Under the pieces are notes generated by a model, which saw only the letters and a program-made list of their open reading frames with translations, was not told the origin of the DNA and made no database searches. A DNA stretch of 64,000 nt from a virus: positions 107,495 to 171,494 of IMG/VR virus record IMGVR_UViG_3300032770_000003; one strand, 5' to 3'. Below, piece after piece: positions 1 to 32,870 of this stretch. The position numbers and the translations under genes were made by a program. Within the stretch, counting starts at the first letter, position 1. Each line of letters begins with the position of its first letter.

Positions 1-376
1 CGCCGTGGAAATCTTTTTCACCAACCGTACAAACCCTGTGAAGGGAACGCGTCCGGGAGGAAATGCGCGCAAGTTCAAATACCTGCTCGAAAGTGGGTGG
101 CACATTCTGTGCATCATGGGTTCCAATCGTCGACGCAATCGACGACCCGGCAGTTTTCGTCCAGCCGACCAGATCACGGTTGAAACGGCCGATGCGGTAG
201 CGGCCTTTATCAAGCTGACCAAGCGGTACCCAACCATGATCCGTGAATATCGGGTGATTCGGTGTTCCGGTGAGCTTCTCACCAGTAGCCAGTACGATCT
301 CAACCATCTGGCCGGTGTACCAACGTCGGCTGACCTTTTTTGACGCACCACAGACGCGAACGTCGCCAGGGAAACA
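1..376 (-). mobile_element. Intein (N-terminal part) in prohead protease
   Basis: Starts CFPGDVRV (block A), has RRWYTGQMV and LTGTPNHPIF (block B TxxH). Homologous to the UDG intein at 28309-29121. Confidence 0.85.
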
Positions 377-835
377 GGCAGTAATCGCCACATCCTGCAG
401 CCAGCACTTGGCGATGGTATTCCCCTCTCGCCGAAGCACCTTGCCCTGGATCGAGAAACCAACCTTCCGATTGGACTCGTTGGCTGCGAGCGCGGTGATG
501 TGGTCCCACCAGTACTCAGCGCGCTCCTTGCCCTTATACAAAAACCCCTTCAACCAGAGCCCAGCCGGGGTGATCCGGCATTCCGCGGGTTCGCCGACCT
601 TGTGCTCAGGGCCCTCTTTGTGGTCGTCGTTGATGTAGCCGTACTTGAGGAAGTAGCCGTAGTCGATCCCGTTCTGACGGACCACTTCACCCTGAAGGTC
701 ACGGTCATCTGTGGACGCGACCCCTTGGATCCAGCGCTTGCCGTCCTTACTCTCAGCCTTGGAGATCTTCTCCACCGGCATGAAGAAGTGGAAGGTAGAA
801 CCGGTGCCCAGCAAACGGTCTTCTATACCGTCCAC
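1..835 (-). CDS. Phage prohead protease (HK97/assemblin-like) with intein; runs off window edge
   Basis: Absent from the ORF track because it is truncated. Manual translation from GTG 835: ...WIQGVASTDDRDLQGEVVRQNGIDYGYFLKYGYINDDH...GLWLKGFLY...KVGFSIQG...DVAITA|CFPG. These are large-myovirus prohead protease motifs, and the gene lies in the portal module. Confidence 0.85.
   Translation of the reverse strand, partial: MDGIEDRLLGTGSTFHFFMPVEKISKAESKDGKRWIQGVASTDDRDLQGEVVRQNGIDYGYFLKYGYINDDHKEGPEHKVGEPAECRITPAGLWLKGFLYKGKERAEYWWDHITALAANESNRKVGFSIQGKVLRREGNTIAKCWLQDVAITACFPGDVRVCGASKKVSRRWYTGQMVEIVLATGEKLTGTPNHPIFTDHGWVPLGQLDKGRYRIGRFNRDLVGWTKTAGSSIASTIGTHDAQNVPPTFEQVFELARISSRTRSLHRVCTVGEKDFHG
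2..343 (+). CDS. C-terminal part of Vsr/DUF559-like endonuclease encoded antisense inside the protease intein
   Basis: AVEIF...KYLLESGWHILCI...AVAAF...EYRVIRCSGE aligns with VAVEVH...KKLIELGWSVLYV...EIIAF...KYRVVRGSGE of 28369-29049. Confidence 0.7.
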   Translation, partial: AVEIFFTNRTNPVKGTRPGGNARKFKYLLESGWHILCIMGSNRRRNRRPGSFRPADQITVETADAVAAFIKLTKRYPTMIREYRVIRCSGELLTSSQYDLNHLAGVPTSADLF

Positions 836-1362
836 TAAGCGCATGTCACGTGCCTCCATCTCTTCCCCTGAGTGATCAGAGCAATGGCGGAACGTGTGAC
901 ATTCAGCCTAGTGGCGATCCAACTCTGGGATCGCCCCAACCTTCGCCAGTTCAATACTTGCTGAATATCCGCTTCAGAAAGCTTAGCGCTACCACGCGGA
1001 TGAGCGGCGCCCTTTGGGGCATTGGTACGTCCCCACGCTACGCAATCAGCGCGATTCTGGCGGTGAGTACCCTCGCTCAGATGATCTGGATTCACACAGT
1101 GGCGGACATCGCAAGCGTGTAACGTTTCCATCCCCGGTAAGAGCTGGCGGCCTAGCTTCTGTTCCAAAACCAGCCTGGCAGCGATACGCGGACGACCGTT
1201 GAACCAAAACCACGCACAACCTTTGTTGTTCCTTGCACCTGTCCAGAGATGGCAAGGCCCCAGCCCTGGACGAGCCTCAGGCCCATTCAGGTCAATGAAC
1301 TTCCGGAACCGGAAGGTCTCGCCTTCACCAAGCAGCTGATCGTTGATCTCTGTGAGTCGCAT
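835..1362 (-). CDS. Free-standing HNH homing endonuclease with C-terminal HTH
   Basis: CHLWTG...LHACDVRHCVNPDHLSEGTHRQNRAD (HNH_3-type); AKLSEADI...SQSWIATRLNVTRSAI HTH. Confidence 0.85.
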   Translation of the reverse strand: MRLTEINDQLLGEGETFRFRKFIDLNGPEARPGLGPCHLWTGARNNKGCAWFWFNGRPRIAARLVLEQKLGRQLLPGMETLHACDVRHCVNPDHLSEGTHRQNRADCVAWGRTNAPKGAAHPRGSAKLSEADIQQVLNWRRLGRSQSWIATRLNVTRSAIALITQGKRWRHVTCA

Positions 1363-27987: not shown

Positions 27988-29400
27988 TCAGGCTGAGACG
28001 ATCTGGTGATCGAGCCACTCACGCACTGCACGCAGATCCTCATAGACCTGCGTTCGCGCCGATGGATTACGCGCTATGTAAGCTGGATGATACGATACCC
28101 GAGTAGGTCCGAACGCTGTGTTGTGCCAGATGCCCCGTAGGGATGACAGCGGTGCGGTACTGAGAGTAGGAGCCAAGAGCGCTGTGGTGGCGACTCGCCC
28201 GAGTGCCACGACAGTGAGCGGCCGCACCAACTCCAGCTGACGCTCAAAGTACGGACGGCACGCCGCCAGCTCCGCGGGTGCCGGCTGACGATTCCGGGGT
28301 GGCCTGCAGTTGGATACTAACATCCCATCTGCTATATACTGCCCGCTTCTGGTCTGCAAATTGTAAACATGACCACTAAACCACTTCCTTTCGATCTTCA
28401 GGATCTTAGCCAGCGCTACTTGCGTGGCGCTGGATTGGAACCTTTGTCCCGGGAAGTTCATATTGGGCAAGCTACGCTCAAGAAGTTGTTCCTGAAAGCC
28501 GGTGTCGCGGTACGAGACCGCTCCGCCGCTATGAAGACCCGGCTGCGCCAGATGACACAAGAGCAACGAAAGGAACTCACTGAAGCTGCGCACGCAGCTT
28601 GTCACGGCCGTGTACGCCCTCTCGAAGAATCTCAGCGAATTGCCGAAGCGCGTGCTCGCCGCTTTCAGGAAACAAAAAAGGTGGTCGGATCCTTCGAAGA
28701 TCTCTTGGTCAGTTGGATCAGACAGCGCGGGATTACTGTGACCCCGCAACAGCCTGTAAGGGGTTACAACCTCGATATTGGCATGTCCCCCGTCGCCGTG
28801 GAAGTTCACGTGGCTGTCAACCATCCATTTGCGGATGCCGACATCCGACAGCGTACGAAAAAGTTGATCGAACTTGGTTGGAGCGTGCTCTATGTCTGGA
28901 TCACCAAAGCCCACCCTCTTCAGCACAGGGTAGTGGATGAGATCATCGCCTTCCAACAGGCGCGAAAGAGGAAGCCGCCCTCTGCTGGAAAATACCGGGT
29001 GGTTCGGGGTTCCGGAGAGGTCACCCTTCTCCGTATGGACCTTGAGTAACGGCCCCTCATACCATCGTCGATAGATCTTCTCGATCCCTGAAGCACACAC
29101 CACAGTAGCTCCAGGAAAACACATCACTGGGTTAAGGATGTAGACCTGTTCCCGGGTGTAGCCCATCCAGGCGATGAACTCGTCGAGAATCGCACCCGCC
29201 CGGCCCACGAACGGAAGGCCCGACAGATCCTCGTTCTGTCCAGGCGCCTCACCAACGAACGCGACTGGCGGGCGAGCGACATTCCCAGTGCCGAATACGA
29301 CCTTGGTCCGCCCGCCCGCCAGTGGACACTTCGTGCAAGTCGAAGCCTCAGACCGGAGCGCGACCAACGCATCGATCTGCGCCGGTGTGCCCGGTTCCAT
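27988..29400 (-). CDS. Family-4 uracil-DNA glycosylase interrupted by an intein
   Basis: CTKCPL...VGEAPGQNED..GLPFVGRAG...LNPVM|intein|CRPPRNR...C...YHPAY. Confidence 0.92.
   Translation of the reverse strand: MEPGTPAQIDALVALRSEASTCTKCPLAGGRTKVVFGTGNVARPPVAFVGEAPGQNEDLSGLPFVGRAGAILDEFIAWMGYTREQVYILNPVMCFPGATVVCASGIEKIYRRWYEGPLLKVHTEKGDLSGTPNHPVFSSRGRLPLSRLLEGDDLIHYPVLKRVGFGDPDIEHAPTKFDQLFRTLSDVGIRKWMVDSHVNFHGDGGHANIEVVTPYRLLRGHSNPALSDPTDQEIFEGSDHLFCFLKAASTRFGNSLRFFERAYTAVTSCVRSFSEFLSLLLCHLAQPGLHSGGAVSYRDTGFQEQLLERSLPNMNFPGQRFQSSATQVALAKILKIERKWFSGHVYNLQTRSGQYIADGMLVSNCRPPRNRQPAPAELAACRPYFERQLELVRPLTVVALGRVATTALLAPTLSTAPLSSLRGIWHNTAFGPTRVSYHPAYIARNPSARTQVYEDLRAVREWLDHQIVSA
28309..29121 (-). 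mobile_element. Intein (271 aa) with no sense-strand endonuclease motifs
   Basis: CFPGATVV...GTPNHPVF...GHVYNLQT...YIADGMLVSN|C. Inserted before the Fe-S-ligand Cys of the CRPP motif. Confidence 0.9.
28369..29049 (+). CDS. HTH plus Vsr/DUF559-like endonuclease encoded antisense, wholly within the UDG intein
   Basis: FEDLL..WIRQRGI..TPQQPVRGYNLDI...VAVEVH...H...RTKKLIELGWSVLYVW. Homolog at 2-343. Confidence 0.8.
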   Translation: MTTKPLPFDLQDLSQRYLRGAGLEPLSREVHIGQATLKKLFLKAGVAVRDRSAAMKTRLRQMTQEQRKELTEAAHAACHGRVRPLEESQRIAEARARRFQETKKVVGSFEDLLVSWIRQRGITVTPQQPVRGYNLDIGMSPVAVEVHVAVNHPFADADIRQRTKKLIELGWSVLYVWITKAHPLQHRVVDEIIAFQQARKRKPPSAGKYRVVRGSGEVTLLRMDLE

Positions 29401-29905: not shown

Positions 29906-32014
29906 CTACCCTTTCTTGTGCCTGAGGCACTGGTCTATCTGATTCAGACCTTGACGAGGTAATTCGTCAAGCTTTTTCACTACCACAGTGTTCGAATATA
30001 TGCCAGTGACTGCGTCGGTCTCGATTCCGATCACTACGAGTTCAACGAGCTTTTCTACCGCCCTGGCACAATCCGTAGCGTAGTTGACATGCGCTGCGTG
30101 GTCCTCATCAAACCTCGGGAATCTCTGTCGACTATCGTCCACATCCCACACGGGCGCAACCGGCACCGGCTCCCCGTCGTTGAAGACGAAGAGGAGCTTG
30201 CGTTTCTCAGGCCGAGAGAGGAGCATCCGAGCGCCAAGCTTGACGGTCTCCCCATCGTAGGTGTTCGCCTTGAGGTTCTTAGGCATCTGCAGGAAGCGCG
30301 GCCCGGCCGCATACCAGGAATCGCCGAAGGACTTGTACTCCCCCAGCCAGAGATCCCCCCAGCGCTGATAGGTGGCCTGGACCTCGGGAGTCGTCGGCAG
30401 CTTGCGCCGGAACGCCACTTCGGGCTGAGAGGTTGACCAGCCGTAGCACGCGAAGGGAATCTTGAGCTGGTTGAACAGCTCGCCGAAGATGACGGCCGTC
30501 TGTGCGGCCAACAGGATCTTGCTCCCGTCCATCGACCCGGAGTGATCCACCAGCAGCAGTGCACAGGTATCGAACGCCTCGCCTGCGACCTGTGACCGAA
30601 ACACGTCCTTGCCGGTGCCGTTCACGACCTTGTACAGTCGCCGGCCGTTGAGCTTCCCGCGGAACTTGCCTTCCTCCCAGCGGCTCTGGGTGCGCGCCAT
30701 GAGCGCCCGCGTGAGCTTGAGCTTCATCGGGGCGACCATCGCGTTCGCCTGGTTCATGAAGCGGACGAACTCCGTGCGATCGCCCTCCTTGATCTTCTCG
30801 ATGGTGTCACCCTCCGTCGTGAAGATCTGGTAAGCGTGGCTACCCTTGCGCGCCTCTTCGACCGCTTTCTGGAGCAGCTCACCACGATCCGGAGCTTGTT
30901 TTTGCTCCGCACGCACCTCTTCCTCAGAGGGATCGAAGTTTGGTGCTGGCGCTGGGGCGGGGGCCTGTGACGGGGGCGCCTGCTCTTCTTCCTGGGACTC
31001 TTCCTCGCCACCACTTCCCTCTTTCGCGCCTTCGTCTTCCTCGCCCTGCTCGGATCCTGTGGCCGCACCCGCGGGCGGAGAGTCGTCTTCCGACTCATCC
31101 TCCTGTTCCGCGTCCCCCCCGTCGGCCTCTCCATCACCCTGTTCAGAGTCGTCCTCTGATCCCTGCGGCGGGGCCGTCTCCGTCTCTTCCGTCTCCTCAG
31201 GATCAGAATCCTCAGACTGCGACTGTTGCGGTTGGGGCTGCGGTTGCTCCGGCTGCTCCGGCTGCTCGAACATCGCCTGTTCTTGCGGCGACGGGGGCGG
31301 CGGGGGCGGCTGGTTCGACTGCTGTTGCCGTGGCTGCTGCTGCGGCTGTTGCGGCTGTTGCTGAGGGGGCGGCGGCGGGGGCGGGGGTGGCGTCGTGTCC
31401 TTCAGCCGTTCGAGAAGGATCTCAGCAAGCTCCCGCACCTCACGGGTGCTCCGAGCTTCGAACCGCGCTCGGCGGAAGAGGTCTTCTCCGTCCCGCTGAA
31501 AGCGCGCGAGGATCTCAGGCTCGACCACCGTCTGCAGAAACCAGTGATCGTAGTTGAATCCCGTGGTCGCGTACGCGAGCCCGGTGTAGAGGAATTTCCC
31601 GAGTGCCGTGCGTGTCGCCCAGGCTTGCGCCGGATTCGCCGCGACCTTGCGCAGATCCCACTCTGCGGCAAAATCGAAGTTGGATTGCGCTCCGGGGTAG
31701 ATGTCGATCCACCTCTGCTCGATCCGCGGATCCTCCAGCGCGTTCAGCGCGAGGAAGAGCTTGGGCTTGCGCGCCAGCTCCTCCAGCATGTCGAAGTCGC
31801 TGTGGACGCAATGAGACGCTTCGTGGTCCAGGTAACCCTGTGTCGCGCGCAGCAGCTCGTCGCTGGCATCGTCCGGGAGCAGCGGCAGATAGATCGTCTT
31901 GCCGTTGGTGCGAGGTTGTGCGTGCGTGAAGATGACCTTGAGCTTCCACTGCTCCACCAGGATGCGCGCCAGGCGTTCCAGCGATGACTCGACGATTCGA
32001 AGCTGCTGCGTCAT
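29906..32014 (-). CDS. cobT: CobT-like VWA-domain protein
   Basis: GYLDHEASH, NALEDPRIE, acidic/Pro linker, MIDAS LVDHSGSM, VFNDGEP. Confidence 0.82.
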   Translation of the reverse strand: MTQQLRIVESSLERLARILVEQWKLKVIFTHAQPRTNGKTIYLPLLPDDASDELLRATQGYLDHEASHCVHSDFDMLEELARKPKLFLALNALEDPRIEQRWIDIYPGAQSNFDFAAEWDLRKVAANPAQAWATRTALGKFLYTGLAYATTGFNYDHWFLQTVVEPEILARFQRDGEDLFRRARFEARSTREVRELAEILLERLKDTTPPPPPPPPPQQQPQQPQQQPRQQQSNQPPPPPPSPQEQAMFEQPEQPEQPQPQPQQSQSEDSDPEETEETETAPPQGSEDDSEQGDGEADGGDAEQEDESEDDSPPAGAATGSEQGEEDEGAKEGSGGEEESQEEEQAPPSQAPAPAPAPNFDPSEEEVRAEQKQAPDRGELLQKAVEEARKGSHAYQIFTTEGDTIEKIKEGDRTEFVRFMNQANAMVAPMKLKLTRALMARTQSRWEEGKFRGKLNGRRLYKVVNGTGKDVFRSQVAGEAFDTCALLLVDHSGSMDGSKILLAAQTAVIFGELFNQLKIPFACYGWSTSQPEVAFRRKLPTTPEVQATYQRWGDLWLGEYKSFGDSWYAAGPRFLQMPKNLKANTYDGETVKLGARMLLSRPEKRKLLFVFNDGEPVPVAPVWDVDDSRQRFPRFDEDHAAHVNYATDCARAVEKLVELVVIGIETDAVTGIYSNTVVVKKLDELPRQGLNQIDQCLRHKKG

Positions 32015-32048
32015 TGTCCCCTCGACAGGAGGTCGATCCGCACAGAAG

Positions 32049-32870
32049 TCAAAATCGCCAGTGCGCGCGTATAGCCTTGGCCAGCTCGTGAGCTGCAAGC
32101 GAAGTGCGCACTGTGACACGGTAACTACAGGTCGCGTACTTCGACGCCACCTTCGCCGGTGTCGGAGTTGGAGGTTCGAGCTGGTGCAGATCCGCCTGCA
32201 TGTAGCGAAACGTACCGAGTGCCGCTGAGATCTCAGTCAGCCGGTCTATCAGCTCGGGTACGATGCCAACGAAAGCGTATTTACCGGTGTCAAGCCAGAA
32301 TCGAACGATCACGAGTCCGTCACGCATCACACTGCAGTAGCTCGCAGTCAGAGCGAGCTGATACTGCCCGCGGTGCGCATACTGCGTTGCAAAATCACGC
32401 GCCGACCACATCAGCGGCAGGACGGGCAGCTCCCCTAGCGTCCGCCGGAATTCAGCCAGGAACGAGTCGACGGCGCGACCCATAGGCACATACTCGCGCC
32501 TCGCGTATTTATCGGTACCGGCCCAGCGGCTCTTTTTGGTGGCGGGCTTCTTTCCGTGCTTCGCGGGCGGGGACGATGGACGCGGCGGGGGCGGCAGCGG
32601 ATCTTGTTTCAAGGGGACTACGAGCTGGGGACCGCTGGCCACAGCTACCGCCTCAGTGCGAAGCTTCCAGGCGCGTTCGCAGAAGCGCGCGAGACCACAG
32701 CTCGGTGCTTCGCCACAGGGCCCTTCGCCTTCGACCACGAAGAGACCAAAGCAATCAGTCTGATCAACCGTCGCCGTCTCCTCAGGACGCATCGAGCGCT
32801 TGATTAGCTTGACCACCGGGACTAGCCACGGGTCACGGGCCCATTCAACCTGCGGAAGCTCGTTGGACAT
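32049..32870 (-). CDS. Hypothetical protein with Cys cluster
   Basis: DCFG...C...C...C; GAGG RBS. Confidence 0.6.
   Translation of the reverse strand: MSNELPQVEWARDPWLVPVVKLIKRSMRPEETATVDQTDCFGLFVVEGEGPCGEAPSCGLARFCERAWKLRTEAVAVASGPQLVVPLKQDPLPPPPRPSSPPAKHGKKPATKKSRWAGTDKYARREYVPMGRAVDSFLAEFRRTLGELPVLPLMWSARDFATQYAHRGQYQLALTASYCSVMRDGLVIVRFWLDTGKYAFVGIVPELIDRLTEISAALGTFRYMQADLHQLEPPTPTPAKVASKYATCSYRVTVRTSLAAHELAKAIRAHWRF

What the first reader, a model, noticed from the sequence alone, without database searches (positions are those of the whole stretch)
28309..29121. Intein whose homing endonuclease is encoded on the opposite strand
Seen: the UDG intein has intact splicing blocks but no recognisable nuclease in its own frame. 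The complementary strand holds a complete 226-aa ORF (28369-29049) with an HTH-like N-terminus and a Vsr/DUF559-like core. The frames are codon-to-codon: block B GTPNHPVF is the reverse complement of KYRVVRGS, and the ORF's ATG is the reverse complement of the His codon in GHVYNL. Known: intein endonucleases are normally in-frame domains released by splicing. Inference: a distinct architecture that uncouples nuclease expression from the host gene. I know of no description of it.
Basis: partly seen in the sequence, partly recalled or inferred. Interest (0 to 1): 0.9.

Follow-up and report, generated by a model that had tools for sequence, protein, structure and literature searches.

The report
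Intein with antisense homing-endonuclease gene
A self-splicing insert (intein) in this large phage's uracil-DNA glycosylase gene carries a conserved gene for a DNA-cutting homing enzyme on the opposite strand, codon against codon; the layout is real and widespread, but a 2025 preprint already describes it, so this is a new example in a new host gene.

Summary
Observation confirmed in every detail. Window 27988-29400 (-) is a family-4 uracil-DNA glycosylase. It is interrupted at NPVM|CRPP by a 271-aa class-1 intein (28309-29121). The + strand ORF 28369-29049 (226 aa) is codon-aligned with the intein and covers its residues 25-251.

The ORF is a real protein with an HTH N-terminus and a Vsr-like nuclease core (Z 10.7 to Vsr, 9.8 to I-Bth0305I). 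A profile of it and three relatives finds 5596 protein clusters. Substitutions pile up at its third codon positions, so it is the selected frame across the intein's middle. That middle has no confident fold in the intein frame.

In all 29 related places checked (GC 0.43-0.73) the intein frame has no stop opposite the nuclease gene (combined log10 P about -42). For the window alone P is 0.036.

Gosselin, Arsenault and Gogarten (bioRxiv 10.1101/2025.01.02.630785) describe anti-sense VSR-like endonucleases in full actinophage inteins, and this nuclease is 36% identical to the Gordonia phage Vivi2 one. This scan has also noted the layout on other DNA many times.

Added here:
- the glycosylase as host gene
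- a second copy in the same phage
- the nuclease core lying antisense to the folded intein N-lobe
- the nuclease start codon being the reverse of the block-F His codon

The parts
27988..29400 (-). Family-4 uracil-DNA glycosylase precursor gene (470 aa, protein P0001), interrupted by the intein
   Evidence: TIGR00758 1.1e-45 and Pfam UDG 5.4e-28, each in two stretches either side of the insert.
29122..29400 (-). N-extein (residues 1-93), ending ...YILNPVM. Carries the CxxC and GEAPG motifs.
   Evidence: The profile match covers residues 22-97, positions 1-75 of TIGR00758.
28309..29121 (-). Class-1 intein, 271 aa (P0001:94-364): Cys1, block B TPNHP, block F GHVYNL, C-terminal VSN
   Evidence: Boundaries. 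HINT fold: Z 12.6 to the Mtu RecA intein 2in0, rmsd 1.7 A, 105 aligned; 64 chains at Z of 8 or more. Residues 1-122 and 234-271 are mostly confident (short dips at 61-80 and 101-110); 124-233 have pLDDT below 50.
27988..28308 (-). C-extein, starting with the +1 Cys of CRPP, through the stop codon
   Evidence: The same x|CRPP site (CHPP in L014/L015) is used in the related UDG loci L010, L012, L013, L014 and L015 and in the related UDG proteins P0156, P0157, P0158, P0160 and P0161.
28369..29049 (+). Antisense homing-endonuclease gene (226 aa, P0002), codon-aligned with intein residues 25-251
   Evidence: Open frame. Three homologues at 1e-25 to 4e-17. Profile search: 5596 clusters at E of 1e-3 or less, 1110 at 1e-30 or less. 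Substitution pattern pos3 > pos1 > pos2, and nuclease amino-acid identity above intein-frame identity in all 13 diverged pairs compared.
28369..28509 (+). N-terminal helix-turn-helix DNA-binding module of the nuclease (residues 1-47)
   Evidence: Z 4.7-5.2 to Fis, DeoR, NtrC4 and Pax HTH domains. HTH Pfam families occur in relatives: HTH_58 in 24 of 45, HTH_7 in 16 of 45.
28681..28983 (+). Vsr-like (PD-(D/E)xK type) nuclease core of the nuclease protein (residues about 105-205). Invariant E110, Q127, N134, D136, E145; His152 present.
   Evidence: MTES_1575 matches 29 of 45 relatives.
28423..28752 (-). Intein residues 124-233: 'passenger' translation of the nuclease gene's antisense, with no confident fold
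   Evidence: pLDDT below 50. No Pfam hit. Intein-frame conservation 0.31 against 0.46 for the nuclease frame, and the nuclease third position is the most variable.
28996..29010 (-). Intein block B, TPNHP (residues 38-42), antisense to nuclease R210-G214 of the YRVVRGSG tail
   Evidence: Here the intein frame is the better conserved one: 0.87-0.96 against 0.52-0.83.
28789..28803 (.). Doubly constrained 15 nt: nuclease PVAVE (141-145, with catalytic-type Glu145) on + and intein FHGDG (107-111) on -
   Evidence: The codons (C/T)CC GTC GCC GTG GAA are nearly invariant in about 20 embedded copies at GC 0.43-0.73. The one free-standing relative (L001) has CCG GTC GCC GTC GAG.
28357..28374 (-). Intein block F, GHVYNL (residues 250-255). 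Its His codon CAT is the nuclease start ATG read backwards.
   Evidence: The same His/start coincidence holds in 17 of 17 loci where block F was recognised: 15 ATG, 2 GTG.
28311..28340 (+). Weak sigma-70-like site TGGATA-18-TATACT, about 30 nt upstream of the nuclease ATG, inside intein blocks F/G
   Evidence: One site found against 0.3 expected from shuffles. A consensus match only.

Best explanation
This is a mobile intein of the 'anti-sense VSR-like homing endonuclease' kind, sitting in the family-4 uracil-DNA glycosylase of a 171-kb uncultured phage.

Shown:
- The - strand encodes one continuous precursor. Its N- and C-terminal intein parts form a HINT splicing fold.
- The + strand encodes a separate 226-aa protein with an HTH DNA-binding module and a Vsr-like nuclease core.
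- The two frames share codon boundaries. The precursor frame stays open because the nuclease gene uses no TTA, CTA or TCA codons.
- Over the intein's middle (residues 124-233) only the nuclease frame is under protein-level selection. Over intein residues about 25-122 both frames are constrained.
- The nuclease start codon is the reverse complement of the block-F His codon.

Inferred:
- The precursor is translated through the meaningless middle, and the intein splices itself out to give active glycosylase.
- The nuclease is made from its own antisense transcript.
- The nuclease cuts intein-less glycosylase alleles near the NPVM|CRPP junction in co-infecting phages, so that repair copies the intein and the nuclease gene in together.
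For: Anatomy and codon register.

The nuclease ORF is real:
- Homologues at about 30% identity.
- A profile of it and three relatives finds 5596 clusters.
- Vsr and I-Bth0305I fold at Z 10.7 and 9.8.
- Invariant E110, Q127, N134, D136 and E145 in 45 relatives.
- MTES_1575 matches 29 of 45 relatives.

The nuclease frame is the selected one in the middle:
- Differences are largest at its third codon position in the 13 diverged pairs.
- Codon changes that are synonymous for the nuclease outnumber those synonymous for the intein frame about two- to six-fold.
- Per-region conservation agrees.

The intein frame is kept open:
- No stop opposite the nuclease in all 29 places checked, at GC 0.43-0.73.
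- P = 0.036 for the window and combined log10 P = -42.

The intein is intact:
- Cys1, TPNH, GHVYNL, Asn271 and the +1 Cys are present.
- HINT fold at Z 12.6.

Same element elsewhere:
- At the same UDG site in L010, L012, L013, L014 and L015 and in the UDG proteins P0156, P0157, P0158, P0160 and P0161.
- In MuF-like head genes of phages, including four checked records.
- In a second gene of this same phage.

Homology to the described actinophage class: Gordonia phage Vivi2, 36% identity, 2e-35, and the preprint itself.
Against: - There is no expression, splicing or cleavage evidence for this element.
- In most relatives the antisense of block F (N-L-Q/E) gives a GGAG(G) ribosome-binding site 8-9 nt before the start. 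The window has CTGCAAATT there, so it has no such site.
- The promoter-like match is weak.
- The intein ends in Ser-Asn rather than His-Asn.
- The fifth residue of the EDxHD motif could not be identified, and Pfam matches fall below the curated cut-offs.
- For the window alone the open antisense frame is only modestly unlikely (P = 0.036).
Confidence: 0.8

Rival explanations
1. Relic element. The intein still splices and is inherited vertically, but the antisense nuclease gene in this phage is no longer expressed or active. It is on its way to decay into a mini-intein.
For: The window copy lacks the GGAG(G) site that most relatives have before the start codon. The promoter-like match is weak. 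A relative (L013) has already lost the nuclease's middle region, leaving a 194-aa intein and a 158-161 aa ORF. The preprint says some VSR-like cases look vertically inherited.
Against: The ORF is full length with no stops. It keeps every residue that is invariant in 45 relatives. It diverges from its nearest relative (L011, 53% identity) mostly at third codon positions, which is purifying selection. The same phage's second copy is also intact.
Confidence: 0.12
2. The antisense protein is real and expressed but is not a homing enzyme. Possible roles are an HTH regulator, or a nuclease used against competing phages or host DNA, that merely lodges inside the intein.
For: Homing has not been shown for any member of this antisense class. 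The N-terminal module is a generic HTH. The full EDxHD catalytic set was not identified.
Against: All 28 intein-embedded copies examined lie inside inteins at conserved sites of different host genes: MuF, UDG, prohead protease and a terminase-like gene. That is the distribution expected of a homing module. The closest solved relative with a known role of this kind is the homing endonuclease I-Bth0305I. The preprint reports transfer-like distributions for two VSR-like groups.
Confidence: 0.06
3. Chance antisense ORF. GC-rich coding DNA often has long open frames on the complementary strand in codon register, and the 226-aa ORF encodes nothing.
For: The window is 55-60% GC. P(no antisense stop) for this locus alone is 0.036, which is not extreme. 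A free-standing, very GC-rich relative (L001) also has an open antisense frame by composition alone.
Against: Thousands of homologues, a confident Vsr-like fold, invariant catalytic-type residues and a coding-type substitution pattern in this frame. AT-rich relatives (GC 0.43-0.49) also keep both frames open.
Confidence: 0.01

Closest known systems
Inteins with an anti-sense VSR-like homing endonuclease in actinobacteriophages (Gosselin, Arsenault and Gogarten, bioRxiv 10.1101/2025.01.02.630785)
   Same: A full (unsplit) intein with no in-frame nuclease fold and a Vsr-like nuclease ORF on the antisense strand. Their structure match is to 1CW0 at Z 10.6; here it is 10.7. There is direct sequence homology to the ORF under Gordonia phage Vivi2 gene 14 (36% identity, 2e-35).
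   Different: The host gene here is uracil-DNA glycosylase, which the preprint does not mention. The phage is a 171-kb uncultured one carrying two such inteins. [quoted passage not shown] Here the nuclease ORF covers intein residues 25-251, including block B, the HINT N-lobe and the block-F His.
'Fractured genes': split inteins with a free-standing Vsr-like endonuclease gene between the halves (Dassa et al. 2009, PMC2677866)
   Same: Phage genes broken by an intein whose nuclease is a separate Vsr-like ORF rather than an in-frame domain.
   Different: There the host gene is split into two ORFs and must trans-splice. Here the precursor is one open frame of 470 aa and the nuclease gene is on the opposite strand.
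I-Bth0305I, prototype of the EDxHD homing endonucleases (Taylor et al. 2011, PMC3239194; PDB 3R3P)
   Same: Vsr-like catalytic domain (Z 9.8, 92 of 97 residues aligned). It has a bipartite build of an N-terminal DNA-binding region plus a C-terminal nuclease. Counterparts of its Glu, Asp, extra acidic residue and His are present (E110, D136, E145, H152).
   Different: I-Bth0305I is encoded in a group I intron and binds DNA through NUMOD motifs. Here the gene lies antisense in an intein and the binding module is an HTH. The last Asp of EDxHD was not identified.
Anti-sense LAGLIDADG endonucleases in inteins (Synechocystis DnaX and others; Gorbalenya 1998 and Gogarten et al. 2002, as cited in the preprint)
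   Same: The endonuclease ORF lies on the strand opposite the intein.
   Different: A different nuclease family. I did not examine those sequences.
Canonical bifunctional inteins (for example PI-SceI, Mtu RecA intein) with an in-frame LAGLIDADG or HNH domain
   Same: The HINT splicing fold and insertion at a conserved catalytic-site residue of the host protein.
   Different: The nuclease is not part of the spliced-out polypeptide. The in-frame middle has no confident fold.

Membership tests
Intein (HINT domain, class 1) | Cys, Ser or Thr as first residue; block B TxxH | tested here: met
   Cys1 in CFPGATVV and T38-P-N-H41. Both are invariant in 18 related inteins.
Intein (HINT domain, class 1) | C-terminal Asn followed by a Cys, Ser or Thr +1 residue | tested here: met
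   ...MLVSN|CRPP. Asn271 is invariant.
Intein (HINT domain, class 1) | Penultimate His (block G His-Asn) | tested here: not met
   Ser-Asn here and in the UDG-hosted relatives L010-L013. L014 and most MuF copies have His-Asn. From general knowledge, some active inteins lack this His, so this does not exclude splicing.
Intein (HINT domain, class 1) | HINT fold | tested here: met
   Z 12.6 to 2in0, rmsd 1.7 A, 105 aligned. All top matches are inteins, hedgehog or BIL domains.
Intein (HINT domain, class 1) | In-frame insertion that interrupts an otherwise continuous host-protein profile | tested here: met
   The UDG profiles match in two stretches either side of residues 94-364.
Intein (HINT domain, class 1) | Protein splicing activity | not testable with these tools
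   Needs expression of the precursor.
Anti-sense VSR-like HEN inteins (Gosselin et al. 2025) | Unsplit intein with the nuclease ORF on the antisense strand inside it | tested here: met
   Both frames are open in all 29 related places checked.
Anti-sense VSR-like HEN inteins (Gosselin et al. 2025) | Homology to the actinophage members | tested here: met
   tblastn to the antisense strand of MuF-like genes of Gordonia phages Vivi2, Fosterous, Affeca and others: 34-36% identity, 2e-35 to 4e-29.
EDxHD / Vsr-like homing endonucleases | Vsr-like nuclease fold | tested here: met
   1cw0_A Z 10.7 (128 aligned); 3r3p_A Z 9.8 (92 aligned).
EDxHD / Vsr-like homing endonucleases | The five active-site residues E, D, x (acidic), H, D | tested here: inconclusive
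   E110, D136 and E145 are invariant and His152 lies 7 residues after E145, as in Vsr (F62 to H69). No conserved counterpart of the last Asp was found by sequence. No residue-level structural superposition was available.
EDxHD / Vsr-like homing endonucleases | Cleaves the element-free allele near the insertion site | not testable with these tools
   Needs an enzyme assay.
Pfam MTES_1575 (PF18741) / DUF559 (PF04480) | Score at or above the curated gathering cut-off | tested here: not met
   MTES_1575 scores 25.1 bits against a cut-off of 38.2. DUF559 has E = 0.15. 29 of 45 relatives match MTES_1575 at E of 0.01 or less. It is therefore related to these families but not a curated member.
Fractured gene / split intein (Dassa et al. 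2009) | Host gene split into separate ORFs with the intein in two pieces | tested here: not met
   A single 470-aa open frame runs through the whole intein.

The most novel reading that the evidence does not exclude
The two genes are interlocked rather than merely stacked.

- About 100 codons encode folded, selected parts of both proteins on opposite strands. The nuclease catalytic core (residues about 130-226) lies against the HINT N-lobe (intein residues about 25-122).
- One 15-nt stretch, PVAVE on one strand and FHGDG on the other, is frozen at all three codon positions.
- The nuclease's start codon, and in most relatives its ribosome-binding site, are written as the reverse complement of intein block F (His-Val-Tyr-Asn-Leu-Gln/Glu).

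This would make intein and nuclease an obligate two-strand unit that neither partner can easily leave. That could explain why the layout persists across more than a thousand protein clusters. The preprint states instead that the secondary ORFs mostly lie outside the splicing domain.
Probability: 0.55. Interest if true: 0.6.

Novelty: new member of a known kind. Interest (0 to 1): 0.4.

Why it matters
The element shows that the antisense-nuclease intein reported for actinophages is not confined to them. It occurs in a DNA-repair gene of a large uncultured phage. It occurs twice in that phage. Homologues of the nuclease ORF match 126 deposited phage genomes (Salmonella, Pseudomonas, Klebsiella, Gordonia and others). 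In the four records I opened, only the host gene on the opposite strand is annotated over the match.

Annotation pipelines that allow one gene per stretch miss it, and such inteins get filed as decaying or mini-inteins.

It is also a clean natural case of long sense/antisense double coding with a measurable shift of constraint from one strand to the other. That makes it a good system for asking how overlapping genes evolve and how homing endonucleases and inteins first joined.

Tried and rejected
- Sequence search of P0002 and of its 4-sequence profile against PDB chains gave nothing significant (Vsr at E 0.31, 3hrl at 0.47). The fold comparison was needed.
- Foldseek alone gave only weak E-values for both models. 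The second-look aligner gave clear Z-scores.
- A scan of one genome per prokaryote species with the family pattern found no relative. I therefore have no count for prophages or cellular genomes.
- A crude check of ribosome-binding-site use in the window found 13 of 60 ORFs with GGAG-like motifs, against 10.5% background. It is too rough, because true starts are uncertain, to say whether this phage dispenses with such sites. I draw no conclusion from the missing site before the nuclease ATG.
- The promoter scan gave one weak site, which is not evidence of an antisense promoter.
- I first took the intein as residues 94-384. The correct end is 364. The homologue search therefore included 20 extein residues, which does not affect its result.
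- A tree of 27 nuclease sequences is poorly resolved: 15 of 24 inner branches are open. It can only suggest, not show, that the UDG-hosted copies form one group.
Full report
**What is there.**
The window is the last 64 kb of a 171,494-bp IMG/VR virus record rated 96% complete.
- On the - strand, 27988-29400 is a 470-aa ORF. Its ends match family-4 uracil-DNA glycosylase (TIGR00758 1.1e-45; Pfam UDG 5.4e-28). The match falls in two stretches that continue one profile across an insert.
It is 271 aa, starts with Cys (CFPGATVV), carries block B TPNHP and block F GHVYNL, and ends ...MLVSN before the Cys of CRPP.
- From general knowledge of family-4 enzymes, that Cys should be one of the four iron-sulfur ligands. 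The CxxC and the C-16-C spacing are present in the sequence.
- On the + strand, 28369-29049 is a 226-aa ORF.
The two frames share codon boundaries. ATG 28369 is the reverse of the CAT codon for His251 in GHVYNL. KYRVVRGS is the reverse of GTPNHPVF. The ORF's TAA stop reads as Leu25 of the intein.
- The nuclease ORF thus covers intein residues 25-251.

**Which strand codes for what.**
- The + strand ORF is a real protein. It has homologues at about 30% identity that were called as genes elsewhere (1e-25 to 4e-17).
- A profile of these four sequences finds 5596 clusters at E of 1e-3 or less, and 1110 at 1e-30 or less, among 1.84 billion representatives.
[quoted passage not shown] Residues 1-47 align to Fis and DeoR-type HTH domains.
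- Across 45 relatives, E110, Q127, N134, D136 and E145 are invariant. Of these relatives, 29 match Pfam MTES_1575 and most carry HTH families.
- The window protein itself stays below Pfam's cut-offs.
- The intein frame behaves differently. Its residues 140-350 of the precursor have no Pfam hit.
- In a model built from 18 related inteins, residues 1-122 and 234-271 form a mostly confident HINT fold (Z 12.6 to the Mtu RecA intein, rmsd 1.7 A). Residues 124-233 have pLDDT below 50.

**Evidence from relatives.**
I collected 29 places with a homologue of the ORF, at GC 0.43-0.73. They came from metagenome contigs (L001-L003, L010-L013), IMG/VR contigs (L014-L028), deposited phages (L004-L007), and a second site in this phage that was counted both as L009 and at the window's 5' end.
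- In every one the codon-aligned antisense frame has no stop opposite the nuclease. The other two antisense frames have 3-27 stops in nearly every place.
- From each locus's own codon usage I expect 0-11 antisense stops. That gives P = 0.036 for the window and a combined log10 P of -42 over 24 distinct loci. The loci are related, so this is not a strict probability. But third positions are saturated at this divergence.
- All but one of the 29 (L001) sit inside an intein on the other strand. Three further top database representatives that I sampled do too.
- In the 13 diverged pairs compared, differences are greatest at the nuclease's third codon position. Nuclease amino-acid identity exceeds intein-frame identity; window against L011 is 53% against 33%. 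Codon changes synonymous for the nuclease outnumber those synonymous for the intein frame two- to six-fold.
- So the nuclease is the selected reading of the middle, and the intein frame there is selected only to stay open.

**Distribution.**
- The same intein, with the same antisense ORF at the same x|CRPP site (CHPP in L014/L015), occurs in other UDG genes. These are the loci L010, L012, L013, L014 and L015 and the proteins P0156, P0157, P0158, P0160 and P0161. One of these proteins (P0160) also carries a 3'-5' exonuclease domain. One locus (L013) has a shortened 194-aa intein and a 158-161 aa ORF.
- Most relatives sit at the NC|RC motif of MuF-like head-morphogenesis genes.
- tblastn finds the ORF in 126 deposited phage genomes (Salmonella 62, Gordonia 15, Pseudomonas 15, Klebsiella 8 and others). 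In the four records I opened, the only annotated gene over the match lies on the opposite strand.
- The phage itself has a second, diverged copy (33% identity) in a prohead-protease-like gene that runs over the window's start.
- In a weakly resolved tree, the UDG-hosted nucleases group together in 63% of bootstrap trees. The protease copy does not group with the UDG copy. The two copies in this phage therefore do not look like a recent duplication.

**Details beyond the published description.**
- The overlap is not limited to a spacer. Conservation was split by region.
  - Opposite the unstructured middle, the nuclease frame scores 0.46 and the intein frame 0.31, and the nuclease third position is the freest.
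  - Opposite the HINT N-lobe (intein 26-122), the two frames are equally conserved (0.465 against 0.459), and first and third positions are equally constrained.
  - Around block B, the intein frame dominates (0.57 against 0.43).
- One stretch is frozen in both readings. Nuclease PVAVE (with Glu145) lies against intein FHGDG (107-111). It uses the codons (C/T)CC GTC GCC GTG GAA in about 20 embedded copies, whatever their GC. At nuclease residue 141 the first codon base varies while the third does not, which is the signature of selection in the intein frame.
- The one free-standing relative (L001) has CCG GTC GCC GTC GAG there. One example is thin support. I do not know what FHGDG does.
- In 17 of 17 loci where my pattern recognised block F, the first start codon of the nuclease frame is the reverse of the block-F His codon (CAT to ATG in 15, CAC to GTG in 2).
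- In most loci the reverse of Asn-Leu-Gln/Glu gives GGAG(G) 8-9 nt upstream. The window and its sister copy lack this. This is one reason to keep the 'relic' rival alive.

**Comparison with what is known.**
- The layout is published. Gosselin, Arsenault and Gogarten (bioRxiv 10.1101/2025.01.02.630785) list 'anti-sense VSR-like HEN' among non-canonical intein architectures in actinophages. They match it to 1CW0 at Z 10.6 and to 3R3P by HHpred. They propose origin by invasion of an intein by a free-standing endonuclease gene.
- They cite earlier reports of anti-sense LAGLIDADG endonucleases in inteins.
- Uracil-DNA glycosylase is not mentioned in that text.
- Dassa et al. 2009 (PMC2677866) described Vsr-like endonuclease genes between the halves of split inteins. 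Taylor et al. 2011 (PMC3239194) characterised I-Bth0305I.
- Notes of this scan show the same layout reported on many other genomes, once in a UDG-polymerase gene. I found the preprint before reading those notes.

**Verdict.**
The mechanism is most likely a splicing intein plus a separately expressed homing nuclease, but that is inferred, not shown. It is a new member (new host gene, new phage lineage) of a kind already described, with some added anatomy that may be worth a specialist's look.

Noticed in passing
window 1-343 (+) and 1-859 (-); whole element in L009 943-2649: There is a second antisense-nuclease intein in the same phage, in a prohead-protease-like gene (AITA|CFPGDVRV ... VAHN|SPVNTN, with Ser as the +1 residue). 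Its + strand ORF (HTH plus PVAVE-type core, ending YRVIRCSGE) is 33% identical to the UDG one. It also starts at the reverse of the GHVYNL His codon. It does not group with the UDG copy in the tree.
   Followed up: partly
L001 2459-3349 (+), Logan SRR30224793 contig: This is the only relative found outside an intein. A 296-aa homologue lies on the opposite strand between a MuF-like gene with an intact NCRC motif and an 803-aa ORF, overlapping the MuF gene's 3' end. Its PVAVE codons differ from the frozen set of embedded copies. It could be a free-standing ancestor type or an escaped copy.
   Followed up: partly
L013 1501-2691 (JGI 3300041082 contig): This UDG intein is shortened to 194 aa. Its antisense ORF (158-161 aa) keeps the HTH and the nuclease core but has lost the long helical region between them. 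Both frames are still open. It may be a step towards a mini-intein.
   Followed up: no
window 28309-28317 and the UDG-hosted relatives L010-L013: The UDG-hosted inteins end in Ser-Asn. L014/L015 and most MuF-hosted ones end in His-Asn. The loss of the penultimate His thus tracks the host gene.
   Followed up: no
window 29906-32119 (-): This 737-aa ORF next to the UDG gene has a long Pro/Gln/Glu-rich low-complexity stretch in its middle (about 120 residues). It was not analysed.
   Followed up: no
L023 and L022 (IMG/VR contigs): Homologous antisense nucleases sit in inteins at other sites: after FGFAN| in a terminase-like ORF (L023), and at an upstream site of a MuF-like gene with Ser as the +1 residue (L022). 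The host genes were judged by eye only.
   Followed up: no
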